Below are positions 1 through 39,752 of a stretch of DNA of 64,000 nt, piece by piece; positions within the stretch are counted from its first letter, which is position 1; each line of letters opens with the position of its first letter. The translations under genes and the position numbers were made by a program. The stretch lies in NCBI GenBank assembly GCA_020773975.1, contig GCA_020773975.1_3638.1. One strand, given 5' to 3'. This DNA is from a phage. Under the pieces are notes generated by a model. It was not told where the DNA came from. It searched no databases and saw only the letters and a program-made list of their open reading frames with translations.

Positions 1-230
1 ACTCACAAGACCCTCCACATTTCGCCATTCAAGGCTACTCTACTCACTTCTTCACATCAGGTGAGGCTGATGCTATGCTTTCGATAGTCGTTAGAGACAA
101 TTTCTTGCCTACGGGGTTAGCTCTGCCCCAACAGGGTTTAGCCTTTCTTACCAGCTTATTGTTTATTCAGCTATGCCCGTTTAGTGGAGTTATTCGACAA
201 CCATCACTGGTTGAAGGCCCAATTGTGTCT
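1..230 (-). mobile_element. Group I intron (intron A, partial, continues past window start) interrupting nrdD
   Basis: nrdD reading frame is lost after ...SLYGTP (exon ends ~231). The region carries the rc R-like motif (tcgatagtcgttag at ~91-104) and the same family motifs as introns B-D. Confidence 0.5.
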
Positions 231-692
231 AGGCGTGCCATATAGGCTAAATGCTAAACCACTTCGCTCTTTAAAATCAGCACAAATATCCTTCATGTAT
301 TTCAAGATATTCATTGCCATCTCTTTACGAACTGGCTCACCATACAAAATTTCAACTGCTTCATAAAGACCCACGTAACCAATACTGATTGATGCGTAGC
401 CATTAAAGAAGAGTTTACTGATCTTCTCATCAGGTCCGAGCCGTGCAATAGCCCCCTCCATAAACATTGTAGGGTTCTGGGATGCTTTTACATCCATCAG
501 TCTACCGACTCTAACCATATGCGCTTTATATGCCATTTCCATGTGCTTTTCAAGCAATTCGGTAAACAGAGTTTTCTTAGATTTTGCTTCTGCTGCAATC
601 ATAGGTAAGTTTAGAGAGACAACACCAAGATTGAATCTACCATCATATTTCTCACCATGTTCTGTTACATAATAAGATAAGAAACTTCTACA
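231..692 (-). CDS. nrdD: Anaerobic ribonucleotide reductase NrdD, exon 4 (CRSFLS...AFSLYGTP)
   Basis: ORF 204..722 translation matches the NrdD C-terminal half (GVVSLNLP, SISIGYVGL, AFSLYGTP). The first 10 codons and last 8 codons of the ORF are intron read-through. Confidence 0.7.
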
Positions 693-942
693 CATTATGT
701 TCAGAGTGGTTCGCAAGTCCACCCCCGCACCACTACGTGCTGCTGCATGTCACCATGCAGATCAGACTATATCTTCACACTTGGTGTGTCTACCATTTCG
801 AGTGTCATCGGCTTACACCCTACTCCGCTACATTCATCACGGTTAGTCGTTAGGCATTTACGGTTGATACCGATTTAGCACGGGATTCCCTCCATAGAGG
901 ATTTCCCCGTTTAGGCAGATTTTACATGAGCAGCTATAGTTT
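693..942 (-). mobile_element. Group I intron B (250 nt, ORF-less, T4-like IA2 type core)
   Basis: On the minus strand: P cuaaacggggaaaucc, Q gggaaucccgug, R gccuaacgacuaacc, S gaagauauagucu. Exon ends with U and intron ends with G. Joining the exons gives ...VTSMG|CRSFLS..., as in T4 NrdD. Confidence 0.65.
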
Positions 943-1242
943 ACCCATACTTGTAACACGCCCGTCTGAAGAACCTGTTACCTTTTTATTCAACGGTACA
1001 GATATGAAATCTGGATAAATCCTTTCAACACAACACTCCATAGCTAATTGCTTTAAGTCGTAGTTTGGATCGCCAGGCTTCATGTTTACACCATCTTCCA
1101 AGAAGAAGATAACTTTTGGAAAAACAGGTGTGACTTTATCTTTGCCAAGTCCGTTTTTGTGAACAAGAAGATAATTCTTTGTAATCATTCTCCCAAAATA
1201 AGAAGTATCAAGCCCAAGACTCAAGGTAATAAATGGGCATTG
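943..1242 (-). CDS. nrdD: NrdD exon 3 (QCPFITL...VTSMG)
   Basis: ORF 934..1245 matches the NrdD central region (GLGKDKVTPVFPK, DPNYDLKQLAMEC). Confidence 0.7.
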
Positions 1243-1521
1243 CATTGCCCACTTTATGTTTCCATAAAGACAGACTATCTCTTAGCATCTCCTAGATGCC
1301 CTCTCCGTTTCGGAGTTGGTATTTCAACCAACCACTACACTACTGGGTTGTGCTTCACAAAATCCATTTCGCACCTTTTCGTTAGTCGTTACAACCGTCA
1401 AGCCAGATGCCTGACTGGTCACGGGATTAGCATAGCTCTATGCCTTAGCGTTCCCCGTTAGCCAGAATATATCTGACCCCACTTGTGTGGTTAGGAGAGT
1501 TTTATAACGGCCATTGTGTTA
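1243..1521 (-). mobile_element. Group I intron C (279 nt, ORF-less)
   Basis: In-frame stop directly after ...NTLMSANG; S-like gagauagucu and R-like aacgacuaacg on the minus strand; splice restores SANG|QCPF. Confidence 0.6.
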
Positions 1522-1890
1522 ACCGTTAGCACTCATCAAGGTATTTACCTGATAAAGCAATGTCTGCATAGCATCGTAAACATCTTTTTCCGTCATCTGC
1601 ATAGCTACACCTTCTGGGTCTGGCAGCCATTGCTCCTGACAAAATTTTAGATTTTTATCGTAGCTTGCCTTGGCATATTGTTTTAATCCTTCATCGATAT
1701 GGGTGTATGACTGCCCCCCGTACTGAGATGAAGAAACTGATTGCGATATTTGGCTAATAATTGTACAGGCAACGCCAATTGATTTGGGTTTTTCTATTTT
1801 TGCGTTGCCAATTTTAAAGCCGTTCTCCAACATATCTCTGTAATCTACAAGACTACAGTTGAAGTGCGGACTTATTAAGTAATCTAAATC
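1522..1890 (-). CDS. nrdD: NrdD exon 2 (DLDYLISPHFNCSLVDYRDMLENGF...SANG)
   Basis: ORF 1519..1833 plus its upstream in-frame extension matches NrdD (MLENGFKIGNA, KPKSIGVA, QYGGQS). Confidence 0.7.
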
Positions 1891-2220
1891 CTTGATTTTC
1901 CTACATTTTTATAGGCAATGACTATATCATAATCTCAAAAGAGATTCTCTGCTTTTCAACTGGTAGCGTCTCCAGCTTACTCCCGAAGGATAGTCGATAC
2001 ACATAACGAAGTCTCACTCAGAATTATTATCTTCACGGAGTGATACTTCGTCTTAGCACGGTATTACCTTGCCCCTTAGCCGAGGGGTTTAGGCTCCCTT
2101 ACTCATAATGCAGTCACCTGCTTCTGAACCGTTAGCACAGTTTTTACTGCACACCGCTTTGCAATCAGCGTTAACAGAGTTATTCAATACTGATCACTCA
2201 GTAAGGCCACGATGTTATTC
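1891..2220 (-). mobile_element. Group I intron D (330 nt, ORF-less)
   Basis: Frame breaks after GYGHVH. Minus strand carries R-like aucgacuaucc and S-like gauauaguc. Exon ends in U, intron ends in G. Splice restores HVH|DLDY. Confidence 0.6.
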
Positions 2221-2718
2221 ATGGACATGACCATACCCGTTTGTATGCCATTCAGCTAATTCTTTTGGTAGAATTTGAGTTAGTGAGACGTGCTTGCTAA
2301 GGATACCAGCAAGAAGATCACGATGGCTACTAACCACCCCACTTGGTTTATTAGCGTTTTCTTTAGTAAATTCATCGGCAGTTTGTTCTAAGAATCCCGT
2401 AATATCTGCAAACAGCTTTCCTTTACCTTCCCTAACGTTATCACGCGTTTTACGATATTCAATATAAGCCCGTGCAGCATTCTTGAGGTCAAGATCCATT
2501 AGTGAATCTTCCACAATGCGGTGAATATCACAAACAGCCACTTTCTCTTGTGGTGGTTCTGATTTTTCCAGAGTCCCATAGACTTGCTCGCCAACTGCAC
2601 ACGCCAGAGGATATGATTTCTCACCATAACCAGCAGCAATCAGAGCAGCTTCTGCCGCTCTAATAACTTTCACACCATCATAATCTTCTTCACGCCCATC
2701 ACGTTTAACAACTTTCAT
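2221..2718 (-). CDS. nrdD: NrdD exon 1 (N-terminal ATP-cone region)
   Basis: MKVVKRDGREE... ATP-cone-like N-terminus, then RDLLAGILSKH...GYGHVH matching the NrdD N-terminal domain. Confidence 0.7.
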
Positions 2719-2721
2719 TGT

Positions 2722-2991
2722 TTATTCCCCCAGTTCAGTATTAATAAACGCAATAAATTCATCTGCCGTACCAACATACACAGTATCGACACCGCACTCA
2801 TAGAAAATCCGTGGGACTGTTTTTGGGATAACAGGGGAACATTTTAAGACCAATTCCTCTTTGGTGAAGTCTTCTCCTAATTTCTTATAGATAAAGTTAA
2901 GTCCTTTTTGTTTTGCAAACTCTTTTGCTCTTACACAATGAGGGCAATTATCTTTTCCATAAATTAAAAACGTGCATTCTTTAAAGTTCAT
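2722..2991 (-). CDS. Glutaredoxin/thioredoxin-like redoxin (NrdH/NrdC-like)
   Basis: CPHC active-site motif in a ~90 aa protein between nrdD and nrdB. Start probably the internal Met (MNFKECTF) rather than 3024. Confidence 0.6.
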   Translation of the reverse strand: MNFKECTFLIYGKDNCPHCVRAKEFAKQKGLNFIYKKLGEDFTKEELVLKCSPVIPKTVPRIFYECGVDTVYVGTADEFIAFINTELGE

Positions 2992-2992
2992 C

Positions 2993-4081
2993 TTAAAAAT
3001 CCCAGATTTCTTCTTCTGCATCATTCACTGTGGTGTTAACACGATAATCTGTGTTAGACATTTCTTGGTTAGCCGTCTGCTGTAGCGCAGGATTCATCCA
3101 TACTTGCATAAACGGCAAAGGGTCTTTGGAAGGAGGGTTGAAGTCTCTATCAAATCCAAAATGATCATAGATAGGAGAACAATTATAGTCAACCCACTCT
3201 TTCAACAATGGTTCGTTAAGGCCAATGATTGCTCTACCATCACTGAAGATATAGTGACTCCAACTATACTCTTTTAGTCTAACTTCGTCAAGAATTTCTT
3301 TCAATTCATGTTTGATGGCATTAAAGCTGTTCAACCATACAGGGTCTTCTAACAGAATTTCAATAATTGCCAAGTCGTTCTTTGTGTGGAGAATCTCATC
3401 AAGCATTATTTTTTGCACAAGTTGTGCCACTTGAACAAAGATCCCTTGTTCAGCCAAGGCAAATGTGCACGCAAAACTGGATATGAACTCTATAGCTTCT
3501 AGGCCAAGCAGGGCAAACATAGCTCTCAGAATGCCTCTACGGGCTTCTTCTTTATCTATAGAAGCAGGATCCAGTCTGTATTTAGCACCAAGAACTTCCA
3601 GTTCGCGCATATATTTGACAATGACACCAGATCTGTTTAAAACTTCTTGGTTGTTTTGTACTTCCTCAATAATTTCTCGTGCATTTGGCAAACACTGTCT
3701 GACAATTTCTGAGTATGTCAAAGCATGAAGCACTTCGATTTCTGCCTGTTTCATCATCAAAGCGTATAATTCACTGTTTGTGATGAATGGGGCAAATAAA
3801 CAGATAATTGATTGCGCTGCAACACTATCAGCTTCCCATTGCCACATCAAAGTTTGCACCATAACATCATAGGTTGATTTACTGCATGTGGTAAAATCTG
3901 AAATTGATTGTACTAAATCAACTTCGTCTTCTGACCAGTCTTGCTCTTTTTGTTTTTTATATAAATCGAAAAGTTTTGGGTATTTTTTATTAATGGAGTC
4001 ATACATCCCCATCTGCTGACCAAGAAACAGAGGGTAATCCCCAGTTTTATGTGCTGTGTTTTCTGTATTGAATAATGCCAT
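2993..4081 (-). CDS. nrdB: Ribonucleotide reductase small subunit NrdB
   Basis: 362 aa; ferritin-like R2 motifs (EAIEFISSFACTFALAEQG, C-terminal tail ending EEEIWDF). Confidence 0.75.
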   Translation of the reverse strand: MALFNTENTAHKTGDYPLFLGQQMGMYDSINKKYPKLFDLYKKQKEQDWSEDEVDLVQSISDFTTCSKSTYDVMVQTLMWQWEADSVAAQSIICLFAPFITNSELYALMMKQAEIEVLHALTYSEIVRQCLPNAREIIEEVQNNQEVLNRSGVIVKYMRELEVLGAKYRLDPASIDKEEARRGILRAMFALLGLEAIEFISSFACTFALAEQGIFVQVAQLVQKIMLDEILHTKNDLAIIEILLEDPVWLNSFNAIKHELKEILDEVRLKEYSWSHYIFSDGRAIIGLNEPLLKEWVDYNCSPIYDHFGFDRDFNPPSKDPLPFMQVWMNPALQQTANQEMSNTDYRVNTTVNDAEEEIWDF

Positions 4082-4094
4082 TTAGACCTCGATG

Positions 4095-4118
4095 AAAAAG
4101 GGGCTTTCGCCCCTTAAT
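4095..4118 (-). terminator. Putative hairpin terminator/attenuator between nrdA and nrdB
   Basis: Minus strand aaggggc-gaaa-gcccc followed by a U-run. Confidence 0.35.
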
Positions 4119-4121
4119 AAA

Positions 4122-7100
4122 TTACAATGCACAACTCTCGCAGTACGGATCTTCAACTGAACTGTCTGCAATCAAAGGATAGTTCTTTTTAGTTTCTTCC
4201 TCAGCTTGTTTCTTCGCGTGAAGTTCCGCTGTCAAAGAATCACCAGCACCAACCTTAGAGTTTAGATAGTACCATGTTTTCATACCCACTTTTGTTGCCT
4301 TGATAAGATATCCTAGCTGTTCTTTCATAGAAATCTTACCATCTTTGTGTTTGGTGTAATCAAGATAGAGATCTGCACTGATCGCCTGTCCAGTAAATTT
4401 CTGGAACAGGGCATAAATATCTATCAGATCATTTGTTGGTGTATCCCAAGCAGATGTGTAGTAATCTTTTAATTTTTCATAATCAGGAACGATAAAAAGA
4501 ACCTGACCTTGAGGTGATTTTTTAAAGATCACATGATCACGAACAGGGTATATACCATTTGTGGTGTTTGTTGCCAAAGACGAACTCTCGTTCGGCATGT
4601 AGGCTTCCAGAACACTGTTCCTGATCCCACCAAAATCAACAATCTCCTTGCGCAAGGACTCCCAATCCTGTTTGAGTGTAGGATCCTTCACCACACTATC
4701 AATCGCTTTGTTGTAAGTATCAATCGGTAGCCAGCCAGATGGGTATTTTGTTTTACCAATCCACTCACAAACACCACGTTCTTTAGCTAACCGCAGACTT
4801 GCCTTATGAAGGCTGTAGCTGTGCAATTCAGCTAAATCATGTACCAACTGTTTGCTCTCAGGAGAACCATAAGGAACTCTATGTGTCGCAATATAATGTG
4901 CCACGTTTGTGATGCCAACACCAATAGACCTACGTTTTTTAACTGTGCTCTCCATATTTTCATACGGATAGGTCATGATATCCATCACGTTGTCAATCAT
5001 GAGCACAGTATAGTATGCCACATCTTCATACTCTTCTGGTTTAACCCTGCCAGCAACCAACGAGGCCAAGAAGCATAAAGCAACTTCACCATCTTCAGCA
5101 TCATACTTGAAGAGGTTACGCATATCTGAATAACCTTTTGTTGGGAGTGATATTTCTTGGCATTGCCCAGTTAGCAAGCCATTAAACACTCCCATATGAC
5201 GTTTTGGCTCAGAAAAACAGTAGGTGTCATCTCTGCGACCATCATCCTTAATACCAACTATTCTTACAAAATGCCCAGCATTCCTGTTAGGTTTGTGTTT
5301 TACCAACACCAGACGGTATAACTTCAAGCCCATTTCTAACAATTTTTGTGTTTCGGTACTTGAGATAAGTAATCTGAAAGCGTCTTTAGTGTTAAAAACC
5401 CCGTAATCTCCAGAGCCATTGTTCAAAGGAAGTAGCTGCGGTCCAGATTTGCTTGCTAAAACAATTTTGCTGTGTACCCCCACCTCTTGAAGAAGGCGTT
5501 GTATCTTAACGAGGAAATTTTTATTTACAGATGCACATGTAAGTTGTTGATTATCACCATTACGGTAAACGCACCCATCAGCATCTAAATAACCAGCAAG
5601 CCATTCAAGTCTGGAATCTAGAGTGTATTCACTGCTAGGCACAAAAAATTTTGTTTTTAAATTATCTTTATAAACCAGAGTGTGTCTATCTTGGAGTTCT
5701 TGGGTTGAAATCTTAAACTCCCCACGAAAACGGCTCAATAAATGTTTTTTACCACCATAGAGATACACTAGCTTTCTATTTTCGCTAACTTCACAACCAT
5801 CACCACTGTAAAATCCGTTTTCATAGGCTAAATCAAGTACCTTAGAACCATGTACCACTTGAGATAATGTGAATTTTACCAATTTATCCCCTGGTTGAAG
5901 ATCTATTGCACGTTTTTCAATCACCCTACCTTTCCCTACAAAACCTTCTTGGATGTAGAATTTATGGTAAGGAGTACATACAAGTTCCTGCCCAGAGTCT
6001 GTTGTCACAGTGATTAGTTTTTGGTCACTACCTGTTTTTCTGACAACAACCTCTGACCACTCTTCACCATTCCACACCTCAACACTACGATCTTTAAGGT
6101 CAGAAATGGTTTGATACCCATCCTTAGTAAGAATTTCCGTTTCTGGTGCAACACACAAATTGCTTGAATAAATAATTTCCTTAAATGGGGTGTGTCTATT
6201 CATCTCGTCAGTCCAGTAAACATAAAGTCTACCCGTTTCTGTACGCTGGGTAAGTATCTCTATTGCCAAATCTCTTGCCTTAATCCAAGTTTTTGGAATA
6301 GAAGCATCCTTGGCAATCTTATCAACTTCAGAGTCAAACTCCTCCATTGTCATAGTGAACATCCCATCATGGAGTTGTGGGGCATCTTTATAAGATACCA
6401 GCATCCAATCCAGGTTTTTCGCAACACGATTGACAAAAGATTTGTTAATACCAACGGAATAATCCATTGTGTTAATCCGCTTAGATGTCACAGTCATAGG
6501 GTTACGTAAGCGAATTAATTCATCAATTTGTGGATCAAGAGCTAAGAAAGAAACTGTTGCTGAACCACCTCTGGACTGTTGCCTATTTTCTTTTACCCCA
6601 GCATCAATACCACGATAATAAGGTAGTTTACCCATATGCTTGATTGTGTTTCCTCTAACACCATCACCAATAGAGCGAGATGCTAGATAATAACCGATAC
6701 CAGCTTGATTAACAGTCATCGTATATGCAACTTCTCGTGCAACACCGATAGATTTAGCTGTATCGTCTGCCTTAATTACACAACACGAAGCATATCCTGT
6801 TTTTCCGGTACGAAGCCCGTTAAGGTATGGTGTCGGGGCGTTGATTTTAAGATCAGACAAATATGTGTACAATTTTGTCACATCTTTAATACGACGATCC
6901 TTAGGCATATTCTTCATAACTGCCATCGCCATCCCCATAAACATCATCTGTGGGGATTCAAAAAGGATGTCATTAACAGCGTCCTTAATACCGTACTTAT
7001 CACGGAACTGTTTCAATACAGCATACCCATAAGACAGATCTTTACTATGGTCGATGACAGCTTCTAATGCTGTTAACTCCAAGCCTGTGTATTTCATATC

Positions 7101-29415: not shown

Positions 29416-29488
29416 GGCCCCTTAGCTCAGTGGTTAGAGCAGGTGACTCATAATCGCTTGGTCGCTGGTTCAAGTCCAGCAGGGGCCA
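29416..29488 (+). tRNA. tRNA-Met (anticodon CAT; could be initiator, elongator or lysidine-modified Ile2)
   Basis: Cloverleaf by eye: acceptor ggcccct/aggggcc, anticodon loop cuCAUaa, T-loop ttcaagt, 3' CCA encoded. Confidence 0.75.
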
Positions 29489-29543
29489 CCAAATGTGGCA
29501 CACGAAATAAACTAGGTTTATTGTTTTCGGAGGAGAAAACTTA

Positions 29544-29867
29544 ATGGCTAAGAAACAGTCTGCTAAAAAGGTATCAGCTATCGAGGCGATCAAGCAACCT
29601 TTTCAGTTTGAATCAAAATCCACGCAGACACATTCTGCACCGCACGATGTGCGTCTTGGTGGCAAAACGCAAACTGTAGCAGTTCTGAAAAAACGCAAAG
29701 ATGAAGACGGTAATACTGAAATGTATTATGAATCTGTGTCTCGTGTCATTGGTGGTGAAGTGATTTCTGCTTCCTATCGTATCCGTACTGGGAAAACAAA
29801 GCGTGAACGAGAAGTGAAACAGAAAACAAGCACTCCTGTAGAAAACGTTAAGAAAACTAAAAAATAA
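29544..29867 (+). CDS. Hypothetical basic protein
   Basis: ORF with RBS; lysine-rich. Confidence 0.35.
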   Translation: MAKKQSAKKVSAIEAIKQPFQFESKSTQTHSAPHDVRLGGKTQTVAVLKKRKDEDGNTEMYYESVSRVIGGEVISASYRIRTGKTKREREVKQKTSTPVENVKKTKK

Positions 29868-29943
29868 TTTACTGACGAGAGTGCCACCGTGAGCCAGCGT
29901 CATTAAACAAAGGGAATCACGGACATTCAGGAGGGTTGAGATT

Positions 29944-30138
29944 ATGATAGGATCTTTGCTTAAGATTGCAAGCGATGTAACAACAACGGCTGTTGAAGTG
30001 ACTGCTGCGGTAACAACTCCGTTTGTTGATTTAGCATCAGATGCTATAGCAGCAGCAGCAGACGAGATGATTTTGTCACCGACATCTGATCTTGTCCAAG
30101 ATCTTTGTGATTCTATAAAAGATGCTGTAAAAGATTAA
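29944..30138 (+). CDS. Hypothetical small protein
   Basis: ORF only. Confidence 0.3.
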   Translation: MIGSLLKIASDVTTTAVEVTAAVTTPFVDLASDAIAAAADEMILSPTSDLVQDLCDSIKDAVKD

Positions 30139-30211
30139 AATTTTTCTTGACATAGTTTTTGTTTTTCTGTATAGTTACTTTATCAAAGCTAATTTACATA
30201 TGAGAGATTGA

Positions 30212-30859
30212 ATGTCTACTAAGATTTCCGTAACTCGTGCACTTGCTTCTATCTCTAAGATTGAAGATAAGATCAATAAGCGTATTTATAACCTTGAATG
30301 TATTAAGATTGCAAAAGGAACTGAGAATAATTGTAAGATTCCTGGTTATATCGGCTCTGTTGATGATTTTAAGAAATCTGCGATCAACGACTATCAAAGT
30401 CTGCAAGACCTCTTGGCAGTTCGCGATGAACTGAAGGCAAAAATTGTCAAGTCTAATGCTGAGACAATTGTCAAAATTGGTAAGGTGTCTATGACAGTTG
30501 CTGAGGCAATCGAACGCAAACGGACGATTTGCTTTAAACAAGAGTTGTTAAACAAACTTTGTGCACAGCGTGCTTCTGCACAGCTTCTTCTGGCAAAAGA
30601 AGAAAAATCTCTGGAAGATAAACTTGAAAATGCCAGAGCGCCATATATCCAACGTGATAAAGCGCCAGATGCAGAGCAGATTAAGACTGTGGAAGCTCCC
30701 ATTCGAATGATGAACACACCATCGGTTGTGGATCCTCTTGAACTGGCTTCTAAGATTCGTTCTCTTGAAGAAGAGATTGAAGATTTCTTGTCTAACGTTG
30801 ATTTTGCGTTGTCTGAGTCAAACGCTAAGACAGAAATTGAGATTGAGCACTCTCTCTAA
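30212..30859 (+). CDS. Hypothetical protein (coiled-coil)
   Basis: ORF only. Confidence 0.35.
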   Translation: MSTKISVTRALASISKIEDKINKRIYNLECIKIAKGTENNCKIPGYIGSVDDFKKSAINDYQSLQDLLAVRDELKAKIVKSNAETIVKIGKVSMTVAEAIERKRTICFKQELLNKLCAQRASAQLLLAKEEKSLEDKLENARAPYIQRDKAPDAEQIKTVEAPIRMMNTPSVVDPLELASKIRSLEEEIEDFLSNVDFALSESNAKTEIEIEHSL

Positions 30860-31224
30860 AAGGCTCTGATAATATCATTATCGTTCCTTTGTTTTGAAAT
30901 TTAAAACATTGCTTTTGATTAACGAAGTTTACATCATCTTGCCTCCTGGGGATTGGAGGTTAAATATTCCCCACCATGTATCGTATATGTATGAGGATAA
31001 TACAGGACATAGATGCAGCGAGGCACACTAAGATGCCTTGTTGTTTCTACTAAGTAAAAGTTCATACAATAAAGGTCAATGGTCAAATGTAAAAGATGAA
31101 ACTTGAAAGTTAATTCTTGAAAGATAAAATTTCGTTTATCATCTGAAATCCTTGGCACAGGTTATGGCTCACAAGATATGGTCTGTAAAGCCTCAAGGCT
31201 GTTAATCGGAAGCAATGTCTTATT

Positions 31225-31296
31225 GCTCGTATAGCTCAACGGTAGAGCACCTGCCTTGTAAGCAGGGGGTTGCAGGTTCGAAACCTGCTGCGAGCA
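31225..31296 (+). tRNA. tRNA-Thr (anticodon TGT)
   Basis: Anticodon loop cuUGUaa, T-loop ttcgaaa, CCA encoded. Confidence 0.7.
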
Positions 31297-31301
31297 CCAA
31301 T

Positions 31302-31398
31302 GCTGGGTAAGCCCCTTGGCAAGGGCGAGGATTTATAATCCTGAAAATAGACGGGCTAGCCGTTGAATACATAGGTGGTTCGATTCCATCGCCCAGCT
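31302..31398 (+). tRNA. Atypical tRNA-like gene (~97 nt; canonical acceptor and T-arm, anticodon not confidently assignable)
   Basis: Acceptor gctgggt/gcccagc and T-arm ggtgg-ttcgatt-ccatc are canonical; the central region holds the palindrome aggatt-TAT-aatcct and a hairpin acgg-gctag-ccgt. Confidence 0.35.
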
Positions 31399-31598
31399 AC
31401 AAGTTTGTTTTATAGTGTATTAGCTTATATTATTCGATATAAATGCCTGATCAGCATTTGTTGGGAATGAGGCATACAATGCGTGAGAAAGCTATCGGTG
31501 CGCAACGTTGATTTCAAACGTATTCATGCTCGTAGAGCACCAACTGTGGAAGTTGGGGTGAGGTTGAGTAACCATACACTATAAAGCATTCTTATTCT

Positions 31599-31672
31599 CG
31601 GGGTGTAGCTCAGTTGGATAGAGCAGCGGCCTTCTAAGCCGTAGGTCACAGGTTCGAATCCTGTCTCCTCGA
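31599..31672 (+). tRNA. tRNA-Arg (anticodon TCT)
   Basis: D-arm tagctcagttggatagagca, anticodon loop cuUCUaa, T-loop ttcgaat, CCA encoded. Confidence 0.7.
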
Positions 31673-31751
31673 CCAGATTAACCCCAACTTGAGAATCGTC
31701 AGCGCGGCTCGTAAGACCCACTCTATAGGTTCTCTACTCGGGGTACTTATT

Positions 31752-31825
31752 GCACGGTTGCCGGAATTTGGTTACGGGTCTGTCTGCAAAACGGATATAT
31801 GTCGGTTCAAGTCCGACACCGTGCT
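31752..31825 (+). tRNA. tRNA-Cys (anticodon GCA)
   Basis: Acceptor gcacggt/accgtgc, anticodon loop cuGCAaa, T-loop ttcaagt, CCA encoded. Confidence 0.6.
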
Positions 31826-31865
31826 CCAAACTTTCAATTTCTTGGTAAATATGTTAAAATACCAC

Positions 31866-31894
31866 TTGACAGATATGTTTTTATTTGATAATAT
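31866..31894 (+). promoter_or_regulatory. Sigma70-like promoter (TTGACA-17-TAATAT)
   Basis: Near-consensus hexamers with 17 bp spacer ~20 nt upstream of the RBS/ATG at 31914. Confidence 0.55.
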
Positions 31895-31913
31895 CATTAA
31901 GTGGGGTTTTAAA

Positions 31914-32261
31914 ATGGCTACCAAGCAGCTTACAAAACGTAGAAGAGGAAAAGGTCGTCCTCTGAAAGAGGAATCTAATGCAATTCAGTTAGAGAAAAAT
32001 ATCCTAGATTTGAAAACGAATCTGATTGCAATGATTCCTGAAGCTCATCAGGTTCTTAGGGATTTGATGAAGAATGTGAATACAAAAGACAATATCAGAG
32101 AAAATATCGCTCGTTATGTTATTGAGAAAGGTGAGCAGATGCTTTCTGATTACTTTGATGAGGAAAACGAAGAGTTACTCGAAAAAGATAACTCAGAAAA
32201 AGCTCCTATTAAGGCAGCTAAACCATTCTCGACGGATATTGTTCAATTCAAACAAGGTTAA
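31914..32261 (+). CDS. Hypothetical basic protein (115 aa) inside the tRNA array
   Basis: ATG with upstream promoter; the longer ORF-track start at 31689 overlaps tRNA-Cys and is rejected. Confidence 0.4.
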   Translation: MATKQLTKRRRGKGRPLKEESNAIQLEKNILDLKTNLIAMIPEAHQVLRDLMKNVNTKDNIRENIARYVIEKGEQMLSDYFDEENEELLEKDNSEKAPIKAAKPFSTDIVQFKQG

Positions 32262-32262
32262 T

Positions 32263-32349
32263 GTGTCGTTAGACCGTAGGGGTAGCTGGGGAGACTGTAA
32301 ATCTCCTGTCTCGAAAGGGACTCGGGTAGTTCGACTCTATCACGGCACA
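32263..32349 (+). tRNA. tRNA-Tyr (anticodon GTA), class II with long variable arm
   Basis: Anticodon arm ggaga-cuGUAaa-tctcc, variable arm, T-loop ttcgact, CCA encoded. Confidence 0.65.
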
Positions 32350-32420
32350 CCAACTGAATCTGTACTGGCTTTGATGTGTGACGATACCCTCCAATCGTGG
32401 TTGTTGGGCCAGTACAGTTT

Positions 32421-32493
32421 GGGAGTGTAGATCAGTTAGTAGATCGCTCGACCGATAATCGAGAGGACGTAGGGGCAGAGCCTACCACTCCCA
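32421..32493 (+). tRNA. tRNA-like, apparent anticodon GAT (Ile), with non-canonical T-loop (possible pseudo-tRNA)
   Basis: Acceptor gggagtg/cactccc, anticodon arm ctcga-ccGAUaa-tcgag (C33), T-arm gtagg-GGCAGAG-cctac lacks the TTCRA consensus. Confidence 0.4.
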
Positions 32494-32501
32494 CCAAATA
32501 T

Positions 32502-32573
32502 GCATCCATAGTTTAATTGGGAAAACTACAGCCTTCCAAGCTGAAGTCGAGGGTTCGATACCCTCTGGATGCT
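32502..32573 (+). tRNA. tRNA-Gly (anticodon TCC)
   Basis: Acceptor gcatcca/tggatgc, anticodon loop cuUCCaa, T-loop ttcgata, CCA encoded. Confidence 0.65.
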
Positions 32574-32687
32574 CCAGTTAAAAGATGTCAATGAAATCCG
32601 CTTGGGTCAACTGAAGACCGTAACAAATTCCATGGTGTTGTGTTTGCGGTCCAACACCAGACATCTTCTATCTATGTACAGGCTTGA

Positions 32688-33251
32688 GTGCGTATGAGAT
32701 ACTTGAAATATTTATCGTGGATTCTGTTAGCACCTCTTGACCCAATTATGTCGGTTCTATGTGTTATTCTGGCTCCTTTTGTTGTTCCGTTCTATAATGA
32801 GAAGACAGGGCATCTACCTTATATTTTCAGGTGGATGGAAACATATGATAATCCTATAGATGGTGACAGAGGACACATAGAGAGATGGGAAGAAGTCCGT
32901 AAAATAGGAAGTTTTGGTGTTTACCTACAACGAGTTGCTTGGTTGTGGAGAAATAAAGCCTACAATTTTTCCTATCACGTACTTGGACGTGAAATCACAT
33001 CTGTGACAAAGTGGAAAGGAAACATCCATGTAAGCTCTGATGTGGAGGATAATCAACAAGGCTATTTGTTGATGTGGAATGACAATGCGTGGGGTGTATT
33101 CGCGTTTGTCCCGTCTTTTAGATTGTTTGGAAAACAATTTTACTGGCGAATTTATGTCGGTTGGAAACTGAAGAGTGTGGTTCCTGAAGACAGAGCTTTT
33201 TCAAGAGAGAGAGTGATGTTGGCATTTTTCATAAGTCCTTTCCGAAAATAG
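32688..33251 (+). CDS. Hypothetical membrane protein inside the tRNA array
   Basis: N-terminal hydrophobic helices (LSWILLAPLDPIMSVLCVILAPFVVPF); 187 aa. Confidence 0.4.
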   Translation: MRMRYLKYLSWILLAPLDPIMSVLCVILAPFVVPFYNEKTGHLPYIFRWMETYDNPIDGDRGHIERWEEVRKIGSFGVYLQRVAWLWRNKAYNFSYHVLGREITSVTKWKGNIHVSSDVEDNQQGYLLMWNDNAWGVFAFVPSFRLFGKQFYWRIYVGWKLKSVVPEDRAFSRERVMLAFFISPFRK

Positions 33252-33256
33252 TTTTT

Positions 33257-33336
33257 AATGAGAGTAGCGTAACTTCACTGGGTGAAGGCTGGCCTCCAAA
33301 ACCAGTGACTAAGAGGTTCGATTCCTCACTCTCGTG
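33257..33336 (+). tRNA. Non-canonical tRNA-like gene with apparent 8-bp acceptor / 4-bp T-stem, 6-bp D-stem; possible anticodon CCA
   Basis: Hand fold: acceptor atgagagt/actctcgt, D hairpin cttcac-tgg-gtgaag, anticodon arm gctgg(c)-cuCCAaa-(a)ccagt, T-arm gagg-ttcgatt-cctc. No CCA encoded. Confidence 0.35.
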
Positions 33337-33340
33337 CAAA

Positions 33341-33413
33341 AGGGGATTAGCATAGTGGCCTAATGCAACGGGCTTTGACCCCGTGATCGGTTGTTCGAAT
33401 CAACCATCCCCTG
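33341..33413 (+). tRNA. tRNA-Gln (anticodon TTG)
   Basis: Acceptor aggggat/atcccct, anticodon arm acggg-cuUUGac-cccgt, T-loop ttcgaat, CCA encoded. Confidence 0.7.
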
Positions 33414-33425
33414 CCAAGTTAAAAC

Positions 33426-33512
33426 GGAGAAGCAAATCGATTGGCGACGAAAACACATTGGAAATGTGCTGACTGGTAAAACGGATTGAGAGTTCGATTC
33501 TCTCCTTCTCCG
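33426..33512 (+). tRNA. tRNA-Ser (anticodon GGA), class II
   Basis: Acceptor ggagaag/cttctcc, anticodon loop uuGGAaa, long variable region, T-arm gagag-ttcgatt-ctctc, G73, CCA encoded. Confidence 0.6.
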
Positions 33513-33549
33513 CCAGTTTTTAATTACTAAGGTATTGGAAGATTAACCC

Positions 33550-33627
33550 TAATTTGGTAAGGGGTCTCCCTGCTGAGGAGATAGTAACCCAGAAATGGGT
33601 GTGACAGTTCGATTCTGTCAGCCTCCT
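33550..33627 (+). tRNA. tRNA-like element with canonical T-arm, acceptor 3' strand and CCA but non-canonical 5' half (GNRA hairpin where the anticodon arm should be)
   Basis: T-arm gacag-ttcgatt-ctgtc, then agcctcc-t-cca; upstream hairpin accca-GAAA-tgggt. The 5' boundary is uncertain. Confidence 0.3.
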
Positions 33628-33857
33628 CCAAGTTATCTTTAATGTAGCTTGTTATTCTTACTTTAGCAGAGTAAATCTTCGGCAAGTGGCGGTAACCACT
33701 TTACCGATACCCCAGAGCAGTCCGCTCTTTACTGGCGTAAGTCAAACACTCATGATGGTCATGTAATCGTAATCTATCATTAGTGTGCCCTCCCTAGAGG
33801 GCTGTTGCGTATAGCTAATTATGTGCGAGTAATTAGCTATTTTAAAGATAATTTAAA

Positions 33858-33931
33858 GGATCTGTAGCCAAATGGTTTAAGGCACTCGACTTTTAATCGA
33901 GGGATTGTTAGTTCGAATCTAACCAGATCCA
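33858..33931 (+). tRNA. tRNA-Lys (anticodon TTT)
   Basis: Acceptor ggatctg/cagatcc, anticodon arm ctcga-cuUUUaa-tcgag, T-loop ttcgaat, CCA encoded. Confidence 0.75.
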
Positions 33932-33953
33932 CCAAAATATTCTGGTTCTTTGA

Positions 33954-34041
33954 CCGAGTGGTCGATGGTGACGGCCTGTTAAGCCGTTGGGAGGAATCTC
34001 CCCACCGAAGGTTCGAATCCTTCAGGAACCGCCAATTCTTG
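33954..34041 (+). tRNA. Class II (Ser-like, long variable arm, G73) tRNA carrying apparent anticodon GTT (Asn codons)
   Basis: Acceptor ggttctt/aggaacc, D-arm acc-gagtggtcgat-ggt, anticodon arm acggc-cuGUUaa-gccgt, variable hairpin gggag-gaat-ctccc, T-arm gaagg-ttcgaat-ccttc, G73, CCA encoded. Confidence 0.5.
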
Positions 34042-34120
34042 ACTTAATCAAGTCACAGATATCACCTAGCCAGCGATACCAGTTAGTAGATTCTGGGACA
34101 ATTAAAATCTACATCTCTCT

Positions 34121-34195
34121 CTGTCCGTAGCGCAGCTTGGGTAGCGCGGGTCACTTGGGATGATCAGGTCGTTGGTTCAAATCCAACCGGACAGA
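34121..34195 (+). tRNA. tRNA-Pro (anticodon TGG)
   Basis: D-arm gcgc-agcttgggta-gcgc, anticodon arm ggtca-cuUGGga-tgatc, T-loop ttcaaat, CCA encoded. Confidence 0.7.
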
Positions 34196-34240
34196 CCAAC
34201 AAACATATACATATCAAAGCAGAAATGTACAGAGGATACC

Positions 34241-34432
34241 ATGTTAACAGTTAAAGTCGTATCTCCAAATGATGAACAAATTTTTTGTGGCAAAATTGTT
34301 GGGTATTGTGCTCATCAAAAGTCTATAGCTATTTCAGGTATTGACCAAAAAGTGTTTTTGTCTGAGGATCAGACAGCTTATGTTATCAATGCCAATGGGA
34401 AAACTATTTCTGTGTATCGTGGAAAACCATAA
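34241..34432 (+). CDS. Hypothetical small protein (63 aa)
   Basis: ATG with SD agagga; the longer ORF-track start overlaps tRNA-Pro and is rejected. Confidence 0.35.
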   Translation: MLTVKVVSPNDEQIFCGKIVGYCAHQKSIAISGIDQKVFLSEDQTAYVINANGKTISVYRGKP

Positions 34433-34446
34433 CTGTTGATATAAAT

Positions 34447-34520
34447 GGGCGATTGATGGAATTGGTATACATGTCAGGCTTAGAACCTGAATTTTGGGGG
34501 TTCGAGTCCCTCATCGCCTA
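34447..34520 (+). tRNA. Class I tRNA with apparent anticodon TAG (Leu codon CUA) but no long variable arm; A73
   Basis: Acceptor gggcgat/atcgcct, anticodon arm tcagg-cuUAGaa-cctga, 5-nt variable loop, T-arm ggggg-ttcgagt-ccctc, CCA encoded. Confidence 0.5.
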
Positions 34521-34528
34521 CCAATCAT

Positions 34529-34601
34529 GTGACGGTAACTCAGTTGGTAGAGTGCCTTGCTGAAGACTAGGTGGTCACAGGTTCGAACCCTGTCCGTCAC
34601 A
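34529..34601 (+). tRNA. tRNA-Phe (anticodon GAA)
   Basis: Acceptor gtgacgg/ccgtcac, D-arm actc-agttggta-gagt, anticodon loop cuGAAga, T-loop ttcgaac, CCA encoded. Confidence 0.7.
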
Positions 34602-34610
34602 CCAAATTAT

Positions 34611-34686
34611 TGCAGAGTGGTGGAAATGGATTTACCATGTTAGGTTCATACCCTGAAGATTGCAGGTTCGACTCCTGCCTCTGCAT
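34611..34686 (+). tRNA. Second CAT-anticodon tRNA (Met or Ile2)
   Basis: Acceptor tgcagag/ctctgca, anticodon arm ttagg-uuCAUac-cctga, T-loop ttcgact, CCA encoded. Confidence 0.6.
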
Positions 34687-37494: not shown

Positions 37495-38823
37495 TTGAGT
37501 AAAGTATTTGGACCTGCCAGTCCTAAACAAAAAATGATTTTGGAGAGTAAAGCCCAAATTCTAATAATTGGCGGGGCCGCCGGGTGTTTGTCTAAAGACC
37601 ACGAGGTGTTGACACCATCTGGCTGGATTAAGATATCAGAATGGTCAGGGCAGGACATTCTGCAATATGATAAAGCCACTGGGGAGGCTAAATTTATCCC
37701 TCCTTTAGAGTTTGTTAAACTCCCTTGCGACAAACTTACAAGAATAGAAGGTAATGGCATTTGTCAAGAGCTATCTGACGAACATACTGTGATTTATAAA
37801 CCAGACTATAAATCACAGCCAAGAACACTTTCTTTTTCTGAAGTGGCAGAAAGACATAACAACTCTGTTAAAAAAGGTTGGACAGGTAAGTTCATAACTA
37901 CATTTAACTATGATGGGCCTGGGATAGACATGACAGAAGGGGAATTAAGGCTTCAGGTTGCTGTCATGGCTGATGGGAGAGTTGTTAAAGAAGGGAAAGA
38001 TAATTATACACAGATGCGCTTTGCTAAAAAGCGTAAATATGACCGCTTAATCGAACTTTGTAAAAAGTTTGGATTAAGATATGAAGACAGAGGATCAAAA
38101 CCCAGTGAAAGATATACCACTGGGGAACAGTACGAGGTCATTGTATGGCCTAAATATCCTGATAAAAAATTTACAGAGAAATACTATCAGTGTTCAAATG
38201 AACAACTGGAGATAATACTTGATGAGATTTTTCATTGGGATGGTTCTTTTTGTAAGCCATATGGCGGTAAAACACATAACAGCTTTACAGGTAGATATTT
38301 TACTGCTCATAAGACGAACGCTGATTTTATTCAGTTTGTAGGATCTTCTCTTGGTTATAATACCACCATAAGCCATGACACAAGAAGTGGAAAGGACAGT
38401 TATACTGTTAATATTATGGCTAGAGGAAAAGGATTAAGGTCACTGGCTAATAAAGACAGAAAAGCTGAGTTTAAAGCGTTTACACCTACGGATGGGTTTA
38501 AATACTGCTTTGTAACACAAACAGGTTTCTTTGTTACCAGACTGGAAGATTGTGTGGTTGTCACTGGGAATAGTGGAAAATCATATCTCCTACAATTGAT
38601 GCCGCTTGCTTATGTCGATGACCCGCAGACAGCATGTATAATGTTTCGTAGGACAACACCTCAATTGACAGGTGCAGGTGGACTTTTTGATACAGCGAAA
38701 AGTATTTATTTGCAACTCGATAAGGAATGGAAGCCGAAGTTCAGGGAGAAAGCTCTGGAAGCAATTTTCCCATCTGGGGCAAAGGTGTTGTGGAGACACA
38801 TGGAGTATGAGAATAACAAATTA
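37495..38823 (+). CDS. terL: Terminase large subunit, exon 1 (contains an in-frame intein; 3' boundary ~38806-38823)
   Basis: Walker A GAAG|SGKSY restored across the intein; then ...AIFPSGAKVLWRHMEY. TTG start after GGAGG. ORF continues as intron read-through to 38841. Confidence 0.65.
37585..38571 (+). mobile_element. Intein in terminase Walker A motif (329 aa, LAGLIDADG-like domain)
   Basis: Starts Cys (CLSKDHEVLTPSGW), ends ...CVVVTGN followed by Ser. Removal gives a perfect P-loop GAAGSGKS. Confidence 0.7.
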
Positions 38824-39081
38824 GATCATCAGGGTGAATAGCTTGCCCTTCGTGCCTATAACGGTGGAACTCCCTATGGGAAAATACCGTGCCACAGAAT
38901 ATGGAAATATAAACTCTGGGTGTAACGACTATCTCCGATGAGTGTAGGAGAGTAGAATCACAAGCGATTGGTGATCCAAACGGCACGCCAAGGATGGAAG
39001 ATATAGTCTGTTCCACATGGAAACATGTGGCGGGTGTTTTAGCACACCGCCTCAGTGTAGCGAACTGAGGGGACAATAAGT
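38824..39081 (+). mobile_element. Group I intron 1 in terL (~260 nt, ORF-less; boundaries +/-17 nt)
   Basis: R-like guguaacgacuaucu (~38918) and S gaagauauagucu (~38998). The frame resumes in ...QYTFIGFDEG (Walker B-like). Confidence 0.55.
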
Positions 39082-39111
39082 TGCAATATACCTTTATAGG
39101 TTTCGATGAGG
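39082..39111 (+). CDS. terL: Terminase large subunit, micro-exon 2a (Walker B region ...QYTFIGFDEG)
   Basis: In-frame segment between two intron cores encoding a hhhhDE Walker B-like motif; stop follows within 6 codons unless spliced. Confidence 0.45.
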
Positions 39112-39462
39112 GTAGAACAGTGTGCTCTCTATAAACCCCTTTAATTGACGGGTAACTCTTTATACATATCACCACTAAGTAGGTATGGTAACATATTTAT
39201 GGTCAACGGTAATGACGTTGAGTATAGTAACAGTGTGAATGTTTAGACAATCCGCAGCGAAGCATCCCTACGGGATGAACGTTCAACGACTATCGCTTAC
39301 GGGCGTTAGGGCCAAGCGGTGAGGGAAACCTCCGGTTGATTATCAACCGCCGAAACAGGGGGGTGTGTAATAACACACAAGATATAGTCTGATCTGCATG
39401 GTGACATGCAGCAGCACGTAGTGGTGCGGGATAAGAGTAGCGATCTTATCTGAACAAAAACG
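39112..39462 (+). mobile_element. Group I intron 2 in terL (~351 nt, ORF-less)
   Basis: Q aauccgcagc (39246), R guucaacgacuaucg, S aagauauagucu (39381), then the shared block cugcauggugacaugcagcagcacguaguggugcggg. Ends in G before ACA CAA TTC... Confidence 0.6.
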
Positions 39463-39752
39463 ACACAATTCACATGGTCACAGATAGATTATCTGATATC
39501 TCGTCTACGTTCAAACTCTAAATATCCGAGCAGGATGGTTATCTCTTGTAACCCTGATCCAGATCATAAGATCAAGGAGTTGATTTCTTGGTATTTAGAT
39601 GATGAGGGATATCCTATACCTGAACGCGATGGGGTGATTAGATGGTTTATAAGACGTGACGGGGAGTTTATCTGGGGTGAATCAGAGCAAGAATTAATTG
39701 AAAAGTATTGGGATGGCAAGGATGAGAAAAGAAAGCCTAAACCACTTTCATT
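39463..39752 (+). CDS. terL: Terminase large subunit, exon 2b (TQFTWSQIDYLISRL...VISCNPDPDH...)
   Basis: Spacing and residues between Walker B and the SCNP motif mirror T4 gp17 (DE-x28-TTTPNG). ORF 39535..39846 is the tail of this exon plus intron read-through; 3' boundary +/-6 nt. Confidence 0.5.

What the first reader, a model, noticed from the sequence alone, without database searches (positions are those of the whole stretch)
1..2718. nrdD is broken into at least five exons by four compact, ORF-less group I introns within 2.7 kb
The NrdD reading frame can only be reconstructed by removing four intervening sequences (<=230, 693-942, 1243-1521, 1891-2220). Each carries T4-type group I core elements on the coding strand, and each predicted junction follows a U and a terminal G and restores conserved NrdD sequence (HVH|DLDY, SANG|QCPF, SMG|CRSFLS). 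T-even phages carry at most one intron in nrdD, usually with a homing endonuclease ORF. Four paralogous mini-introns (250-330 nt, no ORF) in one gene is unusual and suggests an intron family spreading within the genome.
Basis: partly seen in the sequence, partly recalled or inferred. Interest (0 to 1): 0.85.

Follow-up and report, generated by a model that had tools for sequence, protein, structure and literature searches.

The report
Four self-splicing introns in one phage gene

Summary
Confirmed. nrdD lies on the minus strand (ATG at 2718). All four are phase 0, follow a U and end in G. The spliced product is colinear with T4 NrdD (E 6e-120).

The closest relative, Escherichia phage TH18 (Vequintavirinae, 96% identical), lacks introns 1 and 2 precisely and has introns 3 and 4. 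rV5_ev147 has none.

Group I identity rests on different evidence for each intron:
- Intron 3: Rfam, 74.7 bits.
- Intron 2: Rfam, 41.3 bits, below the family threshold.
- Introns 1 and 4: hand-drawn cores with 9 and 13 compensatory pairs.

The "paralogous family spreading within the genome" idea fails. The four show no pairwise similarity. Each has orthologues at the same site in other phages, some carrying an HNH endonuclease gene. An IMG/VR contig carries all four plus a fifth. There the introns are 87-92% identical to the window's, while the flanking exons are only about 70% identical, which points to horizontal transfer.

Multi-intron phage genes are already published (Brochothrix phage A9 nrdE, Jug-phage nrdD, rV5 terL). 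This is a new member of a known kind, of moderate interest.

The parts
2221..2718 (-). nrdD exon 1 (166 aa, ATP-cone and start of the NRDD domain; ends ...GYGHVH)
   Evidence: ORF and translation. Pfam ATP-cone and NRDD. Contiguous with exon 2 in TH18.
1891..2220 (-). Intron 1, 330 nt, no ORF, phase 0, site HVH|DLDY. P1 pairs exon GUCCAU with guide sequence GUGGCC (2210-2205), with U.G at the splice site. P7 is GACUA (1995-1991) with UAGUC (1924-1920). P7.1 and P7.2 are present. There is a 39-nt two-hairpin insertion after P3.
   Evidence: Precisely absent from TH18. Rfam Intron_gpI only 21.7 bits, E 0.014. A 92% identical copy sits at the same site in IMG/VR locus L011. With two DNA-polymerase-gene relatives, P2, P3, P7, P7.1, P8 and P9 are 100% paired with 9 compensatory pairs, against 0-1 in the slid controls.
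1522..1890 (-). nrdD exon 2 (123 aa, DLDYLISP...LMSANG)
   Evidence: Only 90.2% identical to TH18, against 96-98% for the other exons.
1243..1521 (-). Intron 2, 279 nt, no ORF, phase 0, site SANG|QCPF. P1 pairs exon AACGGU with guide sequence GCCGUU (1511-1506).
   Evidence: Precisely absent from TH18. Rfam 41.3 bits, E 1.8e-8, below the gathering score of 50. About 77% identical to introns at the same site in about 42 Vequintavirus records; FV3's copy carries an HNH ORF. RNAalifold on 4 family members gives 10 compensatory pairs.
943..1242 (-). nrdD exon 3 (100 aa, QCPFITL...VTSMG)
693..942 (-). Intron 3, 250 nt, no ORF, phase 0, between the codons aligned to T4 NrdD G289 and C290. P1 pairs exon AUGGGU with guide sequence GCUCAU (931-926).
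   Evidence: Rfam Intron_gpI 74.7 bits, above the gathering score of 50. 79% identical over 192 nt to the T4 nrdD intron, which lies at a different site. Introns at the same site in HMD-6, YP-6, A135 and VEcB carry an HNH ORF in the P6a loop. Residue numbering counted on the alignment.
231..692 (-). nrdD exon 4 (154 aa, CRSFLSYY...SLYGTP)
1..230 (-). Intron 4, first 230 nt of about 290 (P1 through the 5' strand of P8). About 60 nt run off the window. Site YGTP|(A/S)ES.
   Evidence: The TH18 orthologue (L001 3230-2941, 290 nt, 4 differences in the shared 230 nt) ends ...CAUCG before exon AESLCYKF. Rfam finds nothing even for the full copy. A hand-drawn P2-P9 structure on 4 family members is 97.5% paired with 13 compensatory pairs; 0 of 500 shuffles reach this. 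The 5' part is 68-79% identical to Herelleviridae phage introns.
1663..2256 (-). Divergence tract around the intron 1 site (exon bases 2256-2221 and 1890-1663; intron 1 lies between them)
   Evidence: Window against TH18: 85% identity here against about 98% on both sides. 36 of the 74 exon differences fall in the 232 nt just 3' of the junction (Fisher p 4e-13).

Best explanation
nrdD of this TH18/Av-05-like Vequintavirinae coliphage carries four independent, ORF-less group I introns of the T4-like IA type (they have P7.1 and P7.2). Each is inserted between codons, after a U, inside a highly conserved NrdD motif.

Inferred mechanism, from standard group I chemistry. The gene is transcribed as one pre-mRNA. 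Each intron folds into its ribozyme core. A free guanosine attacks after the U of the U.G pair in P1, then the terminal G of the intron is used to join the exons. All four must be removed to give the roughly 660-aa enzyme. In-frame stop codons 1-9 codons into every intron halt ribosomes on unspliced RNA.

The introns are not recent copies of one another. They are four lineages that circulate horizontally among large enterobacterial myoviruses. They persist at fixed sites by recombination between co-infecting phages. At two sites this is helped by relatives that still carry an HNH endonuclease gene.
For: Shown:
- Exact junctions and a restored, colinear NrdD.
- Natural intron-less alleles at all four sites.
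- Rfam hits for introns 3, 2 and, weakly, 1.
- Covariation for the intron 4 family, the intron 1 family and the intron 2 family.
- Core motifs far above chance.
- No sense-strand ORF longer than 33 aa inside any intron.
- Stop codons right after each 5' splice site, read: CAT|GAA TAA; GGT|TAA; GGT|AAA CTA TAG; CCT|...CAG TGA.
- Exons under purifying selection against TH18: 56 synonymous and 10 non-synonymous codon differences.
- Introns 87-92% identical to those of L011, where the exons are 70-72% identical.
- ORF-containing and ORF-less versions at the same sites in relatives.
- A recombination tract abutting the intron 1 site.

From the literature: in a Vequintavirinae relative (CB7), HNH-containing introns in terL, DNA polymerase, nrdA and nrdB splice by RT-PCR (PMC7344957).
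Against: - No RNA data, so splicing is inferred.
- Only intron 3 reaches Rfam's gathering score. Intron 2 is below it, intron 1 is marginal (21.7 bits), and intron 4 is undetected even at full length.
- The P4-P6 domain of intron 1 is drawn by hand and untested. It carries an unusual 39-nt insertion next to J3/4.
- The last 60 nt of intron 4 and exon 5 lie outside the window and are inferred from TH18.
- In Jug phages only 37 of 76 predicted introns had read support for splicing (PMC12880540).
Confidence: 0.85

Rival explanations
1. One reading: the four are paralogous copies of one mini-intron family that recently multiplied within this genome.
For: All four share the IA-type core motifs. The 3' tail of intron 3 is 100% identical over 52 nt to the terL intron at 39086-39411, and 96% identical to the one ending near 40704. 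Some intragenomic exchange of intron modules has therefore happened.
Against: blastn with word size 7 finds no similarity between any two of the four nrdD introns. Each has closer relatives in other phages than in this genome. All four occur at the same sites in a phage whose exons are only about 70% identical. TH18 has introns 3 and 4 but not 1 and 2. Together these indicate independent gains or losses.
Confidence: 0.05
2. One or more of the intervening sequences, most likely intron 1, no longer self-splices. nrdD would then be a decaying or poorly expressed gene, or would need a protein cofactor.
For: Weak or absent Rfam scores for introns 1 and 4. An odd insertion in the core of intron 1. 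Published precedent for predicted phage introns without splicing evidence (PMC12880540; the CB7 NAMPT intron in PMC7344957).
Against: Exons are intact, in frame and under purifying selection. The helices of introns 1 and 4 are kept by compensatory changes across diverged copies. The inserted hairpin of intron 1 itself shows a compensatory U-A to C-G change.
Confidence: 0.1
3. The interruptions are not RNA introns. They would be inteins, translational bypass elements, or boundaries of separately translated NrdD fragments (as with Aeh1 NrdA).
For: Split RNR genes expressed as separate polypeptides, and inteins in RNR genes, exist in phages (PMC3653736).
Against: Every interruption has in-frame stops within 1-9 codons, so none can be an intein. 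They carry group I cores with covariation. No downstream exon begins with a start codon: their first codons are GAT, CAA and TGT.
Confidence: 0.02

Closest known systems
T4 nrdD (sunY) group I intron carrying I-TevII
   Same: Same host gene and the same ribozyme type. Intron 3 is 79% identical to it over 192 nt, uses the same guide sequence GCUCAU, and has a similar 3' tail (...CUGAACAnAnUG).
   Different: The T4 intron sits inside a Tyr codon (AYE-Y-EVN, phase 1), about 10 codons upstream of the intron 2 site and about 110 codons upstream of the intron 3 site. It is 1033 nt long and carries a GIY-YIG endonuclease gene. The window's introns are 250-330 nt, ORF-less, phase 0, and there are four of them.
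Polymorphic nrdD introns of rV5-like (Vequintavirus) and phi92-like (Justusliebigvirus) phages
   Same: Introns 2 and 3 are orthologues at the same sites of introns in FV3, AlexBoehm and A135 (site B) and in HMD-6, YP-6, A135, VEcB and A110a (site C). AlexBoehm's CDS is already annotated as joined.
   Different: Those phages have 0-2 nrdD introns, and several copies carry an HNH ORF. Among the fetched loci, introns at sites A and D were found only in the window, the TH18 group and three IMG/VR contigs (L011, L015 for D; L011 for A). Nothing similar to intron 1 was found in the phage collection.
IMG/VR contig IMGVR_UViG_3300045988_157310 (locus L011)
   Same: It carries orthologues of all four introns at the same four sites, 87-92% identical.
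   Different: It has a fifth intron of 1195 nt with a 316-aa ORF, at SQYG|GQ. Its NrdD exons are only 70-72% identical in nucleotide sequence.
Published multi-intron phage genes: Brochothrix A9 nrdE (three introns plus an intein), Twort nrdE (two), Twort orf142 (three), Jug-phage nrdD (four fragments), rV5 terL (three segments)
   Same: Several small group I introns in a single essential phage gene, typically a ribonucleotide reductase, polymerase or terminase gene (PMC3653736, PMC12880540, PMC3606486). Twort orf142 is from my own knowledge: Landthaler and Shub 1999, PNAS.
   Different: Different phage families and hosts. Four introns in one gene, five in L011, is at or above the counts given in those papers.

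Membership tests
Group I intron (Rfam RF00028) | Score at or above the family's gathering threshold (50 bits) | tested here: inconclusive
   Intron 3 scores 74.7 bits (met). Intron 2 scores 41.3 (below, E 1.8e-8). Intron 1 scores 21.7 (E 0.014). Intron 4 gives no hit, even for the full TH18 copy.
Group I intron | P1 helix between the 5' exon and an internal guide sequence, with a U.G pair at the splice site | tested here: met
   Read from the sequence. Intron 1: GUCCAU with GUGGCC. Intron 2: AACGGU with GCCGUU. Intron 3: AUGGGU with GCUCAU. Intron 4: GCCU(AG) with (UU)GGGC. The last exon base is U in all four.
Group I intron | Terminal guanosine at the 3' end of the intron | tested here: met
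   G at 1891, 1243 and 693. The 3' end of intron 4 is outside the window, but its orthologues in TH18, L011 and L015 all end in CG.
Group I intron | Conserved core with the P3/P7 pseudoknot, P4-P6 and P8, maintained by covariation | tested here: met
   Intron 4 family: 66 pairs, 97.5% paired, 13 compensatory. Intron 1 family: 30 pairs in P2, P3, P7, P7.1, P8 and P9, 100% paired, 9 compensatory. Intron 2 family: 10 compensatory pairs. Intron 3: Rfam alignment. P4-P6 of intron 1 is drawn but not tested by covariation.
Group I intron | Precise absence from homologous alleles, with the reading frame restored | tested here: met
   TH18 lacks introns 1 and 2. rV5_ev147, L012 and L014 lack all four.
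Group I intron | Guanosine-dependent self-splicing | not testable with these tools
   Needs an in vitro GTP-labelling or splicing assay, or RNA-seq.
Subgroup IA (T4 td/nrdD-like) | Extra helices P7.1 and P7.2 between P7 and the 3' strand of P3 | tested here: met
   Hairpins are present there in introns 1 and 4, where they are drawn (P7.1 of intron 4 has two compensatory pairs). Introns 2 and 3 have a 33-nt and a 45-nt insert at that position in the Rfam alignment.
Mobile (homing) group I intron | Intron-encoded homing endonuclease gene | tested here: not met
   No sense-strand ORF longer than 33 aa in any of the four. Orthologues at sites B and C in other phages do carry HNH ORFs.
T4 nrdD (sunY) intron | Same insertion site in nrdD | tested here: not met
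   The T4 site lies within AYE-Y-EVN. None of the four window sites coincides with it.

The most novel reading that the evidence does not exclude
ORF-less mini-introns in these phages reach new sites by pairing of their guide sequence with the target (reverse splicing, or insertion followed by selection for a matching site). They then pile up in conserved catalytic motifs because each one destroys a homing-endonuclease target, so a stack of four or five works as immunity of nrdD against endonucleases of competing phages.

Hints:
- Intron 1 and its relatives in a DNA polymerase gene keep the same guide sequence GUGG and sit at UCCAU|GAU in both genes.
- Intron 3 and the T4 nrdD intron keep GCUCAU and sit at AUGGGU| and AUGAGU| respectively.
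- Sites B and C are targets of HNH-carrying cognate introns in relatives.
Probability: 0.2. Interest if true: 0.6.

Novelty: new member of a known kind. Interest (0 to 1): 0.4.

Why it matters
It corrects annotation. Relatives of this phage are deposited with nrdD as two or three separate "large subunit" genes.

It shows that a single phage gene can tolerate four or five ribozyme-dependent interruptions in its most conserved motifs.

It also offers a convenient natural experiment. The window phage and TH18 are 96% identical coliphages whose nrdD genes differ by exactly two ORF-less introns, and there is a sharp recombination tract at one of the two sites. Mixed infections could measure directly how introns without an endonuclease gene are inherited, which is still an open question for phage group I introns.

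The finding does not reveal a new kind of element.

Tried and rejected
- Rfam on the full-length intron 4 orthologue of TH18 gave no hit. I relied instead on hand-drawn helices plus covariation.
- blastn of intron 1 against 50,697 phage records gave nothing. An exact 24-mer from a variable part gave nothing in IMG/VR. A 20-mer from the P7/P7.1 core then found relatives, and a protein-based locus search found L011.
- Pairwise blastn among the four introns gave no hits. This rejects close paralogy.
- I tested whether the divergent exon tract next to intron 1 came from an L011-like or rV5-like donor. It is not closer to either, so the donor is unknown.
- Intein, bypass and split-protein readings are rejected because of in-frame stops and the group I cores.
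- The pseudogene reading is rejected because of the ratio of synonymous to non-synonymous differences.
- P3 of intron 2 could not be assigned with confidence. The MAFFT alignment of the two subfamilies is poor in the 3' half.
- Pfam found no family in the N-terminal terL ORF, and a PDB sequence search gave only a weak intein hit at E 0.11. The intein suggested there stays unconfirmed.
- I did not map the terL exon boundaries.
Full report
**What is there.** On the minus strand of window 1-2718 lies nrdD, downstream of nrdB (4081-2993) and a 100-aa ORF (3024-2722) that corresponds in position to the glutaredoxin gene of relatives. Its reading frame exists only as four blocks: 2718-2221, 1890-1522, 1242-943 and 692-231. 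Each block is a multiple of three. Joined, they give a 543-aa product without stops. That product hits Pfam NRDD at 374.7 bits and ATP-cone at 52.5 bits. It aligns colinearly with the T4 NrdD crystal-structure sequence (1H78, E 6e-120) and with a bacterial NrdD (9D3X, E 9e-112), with no gap at any junction.

The intervening blocks are 330, 279 and 250 nt, plus 230 nt that run off the window start.

**Independent proof of the junctions.** The window comes from an unsequenced relative of Escherichia phage vB_EcoM_TH18 and of Av-05 (Vequintavirinae), at 95-97% identity. blastn against TH18 shows that window 1891-2220 and 1243-1521 are simply missing there. TH18 reads through GHIH-DLDY and SANG-QCPF in one ORF. 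TH18 does have introns 3 and 4.

In TH18, intron 4 is 290 nt and ends ...CAUCG before an exon that reads AESLCYKF. The window therefore holds its first 230 nt. The fully intron-less NrdD of rV5_ev147 (707 aa) breaks on the window at residues 165, 287, 387 and 548. All four introns are in phase 0. Each follows a U, and each ends in G.

**Are they group I introns?** The evidence differs by intron.
- Intron 3 scores 74.7 bits against Rfam Intron_gpI, above the gathering score of 50.
- Intron 2 scores 41.3 bits, E 1.8e-8. RNAalifold on four family members finds 10 compensatory pairs.
- Intron 1 scores only 21.7 bits.
- Intron 4 is not detected by Rfam, even at full length in TH18.

For introns 1 and 4 I drew the helices by hand and tested them on orthologues.

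The intron 4 family (TH18, L011, L015 and the window fragment) keeps 97.5% of 240 cells paired. It has 13 pairs with changes on both sides. None of 500 shuffles reaches that, and the slid controls give 1-2. The whole P8 helix is replaced by a different complementary sequence.

Intron 1 was aligned with its L011 orthologue and two related introns from IMG/VR. P2, P3, P7, P7.1, P8 and P9 are 100% paired, with 9 compensatory pairs against 0-1 in the slid controls. This includes the long-range P3 that defines the pseudoknot.

All four introns show a P1 helix with U.G at the splice site, and the P7 motifs GACUA and UAGUC. These motifs are 6-9 times more frequent in the window than expected by chance, and nearly all copies lie inside predicted introns in sense orientation. 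P7.1 and P7.2 place the introns in the IA (T4-like) subgroup.

None holds a sense-strand ORF longer than 33 aa. In-frame stops follow each 5' splice site within 1-9 codons.

**Is the gene alive?** Against TH18, the exons differ at 56 synonymous and 10 non-synonymous codons. That is purifying selection and argues against a pseudogene.

**Not a paralogous family.** blastn with a 7-nt word finds no similarity between any two of the four introns. Each has its own kin.
- Intron 3 is 79% identical over 192 nt to the T4 nrdD intron, which sits elsewhere in the gene, inside a Tyr codon about 110 codons upstream. It is also 78-95% identical to introns at the same site (SMG|CRS) in rV5-like and phi92-like phages. 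Several of those carry an HNH gene in the P6a loop.
- Intron 2 is about 77% identical to introns at the same site in about 42 Vequintavirus records. FV3's copy has an HNH gene, and AlexBoehm's CDS is already annotated as joined.
- The 5' part of intron 4 is 68-79% identical to introns in DNA polymerase and terminase genes of Bacillus and Enterococcus Herelleviridae phages.
- Intron 1 has no match among 50,697 phage records. It is related to 250-nt introns in a family-A DNA polymerase gene on two IMG/VR contigs.

**Horizontal circulation.** A protein-based search of IMG/VR found contig IMGVR_UViG_3300045988_157310 (locus L011), whose nrdD is in six pieces. It has orthologues of all four window introns at the same sites. 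It also has a fifth, 1195-nt intron with a 316-aa ORF at SQYG|GQ.

The introns are 92, 87, 89 and 86.5% identical to the window's. The flanking coding exons are only 70-72% identical. Non-coding introns that are much better conserved than the protein-coding sequence around them point to recent transfer between diverged phages.

Within the TH18 comparison, 36 of the 74 exon differences fall in the 232 nt just downstream of the intron 1 site (Fisher p 4e-13). Identity there is 85%, against about 98% on both sides. This looks like a co-conversion tract from the gain or loss of intron 1. Its donor is neither L011-like nor rV5-like. The flanks of intron 2 are almost identical between the two phages.

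**Context in the literature.**
- rV5 terL is described as three segments, with an endonuclease gene in one intervening sequence (PMC3606486).
- In the Vequintavirinae phage CB7, HNH-containing introns in terL, DNA polymerase, nrdA and nrdB splice by RT-PCR (PMC7344957).
- A survey of phage RNR genes lists nrdD as the most often split. It also lists Brochothrix A9 nrdE with three introns plus an intein, and Twort nrdE with two (PMC3653736).
- Jug phages average 18.5 small group I introns per genome, and one nrdD example there is in four fragments (PMC12880540).

The window is therefore a high-count example of a known phenomenon. No record in the phage collection that I inspected has more than two introns in this stretch of nrdD, but L011 has five.

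**Mechanism.**
- Shown: anatomy, junctions, structural conservation, selection on the exons, horizontal distribution.
- Inferred from established group I chemistry: guanosine-initiated two-step transesterification at each intron, with all four needed for a functional enzyme.
- Inferred from the population pattern: maintenance by recombination between co-infecting phages. At sites B and C this is helped by cognate introns that encode HNH endonucleases.
- Speculative: guide-sequence-directed choice of new sites. Intron 1 at GUCCAU|GAU in nrdD can be compared with its relatives at UUCCAU|GAU in a polymerase gene, and intron 3 at AUGGGU| with the T4 intron at AUGAGU|. In each pair the guide sequence is unchanged. 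This pattern is equally expected if random insertions survive only where P1 can form.

Noticed in passing
window 37495-41557 (+): The terminase large-subunit gene is also heavily invaded. Rfam Intron_gpI hits lie at 38780-39030 (33.9 bits), 39086-39411 (67.9 bits), and 39764-39971 plus 40513-40704. The last two look like the two halves of one intron holding an HNH_3 ORF at 39804-40589. The exon boundaries were not mapped.
   Followed up: partly
window 37495-38841 (+), about aa 31-365 of the ORF: The first terL ORF reads GGAAG|CLSKDHEV...VVVTGN|SGKSY. This looks like a Walker A motif split by an intein of about 335 aa with LAGLIDADG-like motifs. PHROG terminase profiles match only the ends. Pfam finds nothing, and a PDB search gives only a weak intein hit, E 0.11.
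   Followed up: partly
window 693-775 (-), 39381-39470 (+), 40674-40770 (+): Intron 3 of nrdD and two terL introns share a nearly identical 3' module, CUGCAUGGUGACAUGCAGCAGCACGUAGUGGUGCGGG. It is followed by a hairpin whose stem differs but stays complementary. This suggests exchange of 3' domains between introns of different genes in one genome.
   Followed up: partly
L016 2385-2633 and L019 3324-3573 (IMG/VR contigs): Relatives of intron 1 interrupt a family-A DNA polymerase gene at GSFH|DECIL. The target is UUCCAU|GAUGAA, against GUCCAU|GAUUUA in nrdD, with the same guide sequence GUGG. One intron lineage thus occupies two genes at look-alike sites.
   Followed up: partly
window 2131-2169 (-), inside intron 1: Compared with its polymerase-gene relatives, intron 1 has a 39-nt insertion forming two hairpins right after P3, flanked by a UAAC repeat. 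This is next to the normally 3-nt J3/4 joint. It is conserved in L011, with one compensatory change.
   Followed up: partly
L011 5010-6204: A fifth nrdD intron site (SQYG|GQ, after aa 222 of rV5 NrdD) is occupied by a 1195-nt intron with a 316-aa ORF. The ORF shows an HNH-like motif by eye (VNHKDGDTTNDVAENLEW). It was not checked against Pfam.
   Followed up: partly
window 29416-34686 (+): A cluster of about 15 tRNA genes, all on the plus strand.
   Followed up: no
L001 (TH18) 2464-5111, and other GenBank records: Public records annotate nrdD as two or three separate "large subunit" CDSs that run on into the introns (for example ...SMGKL*...GTPKHNWAFNQ*). Exon 5 of TH18 is called from an internal GTG and misses AESLCYKF....
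   Followed up: yes
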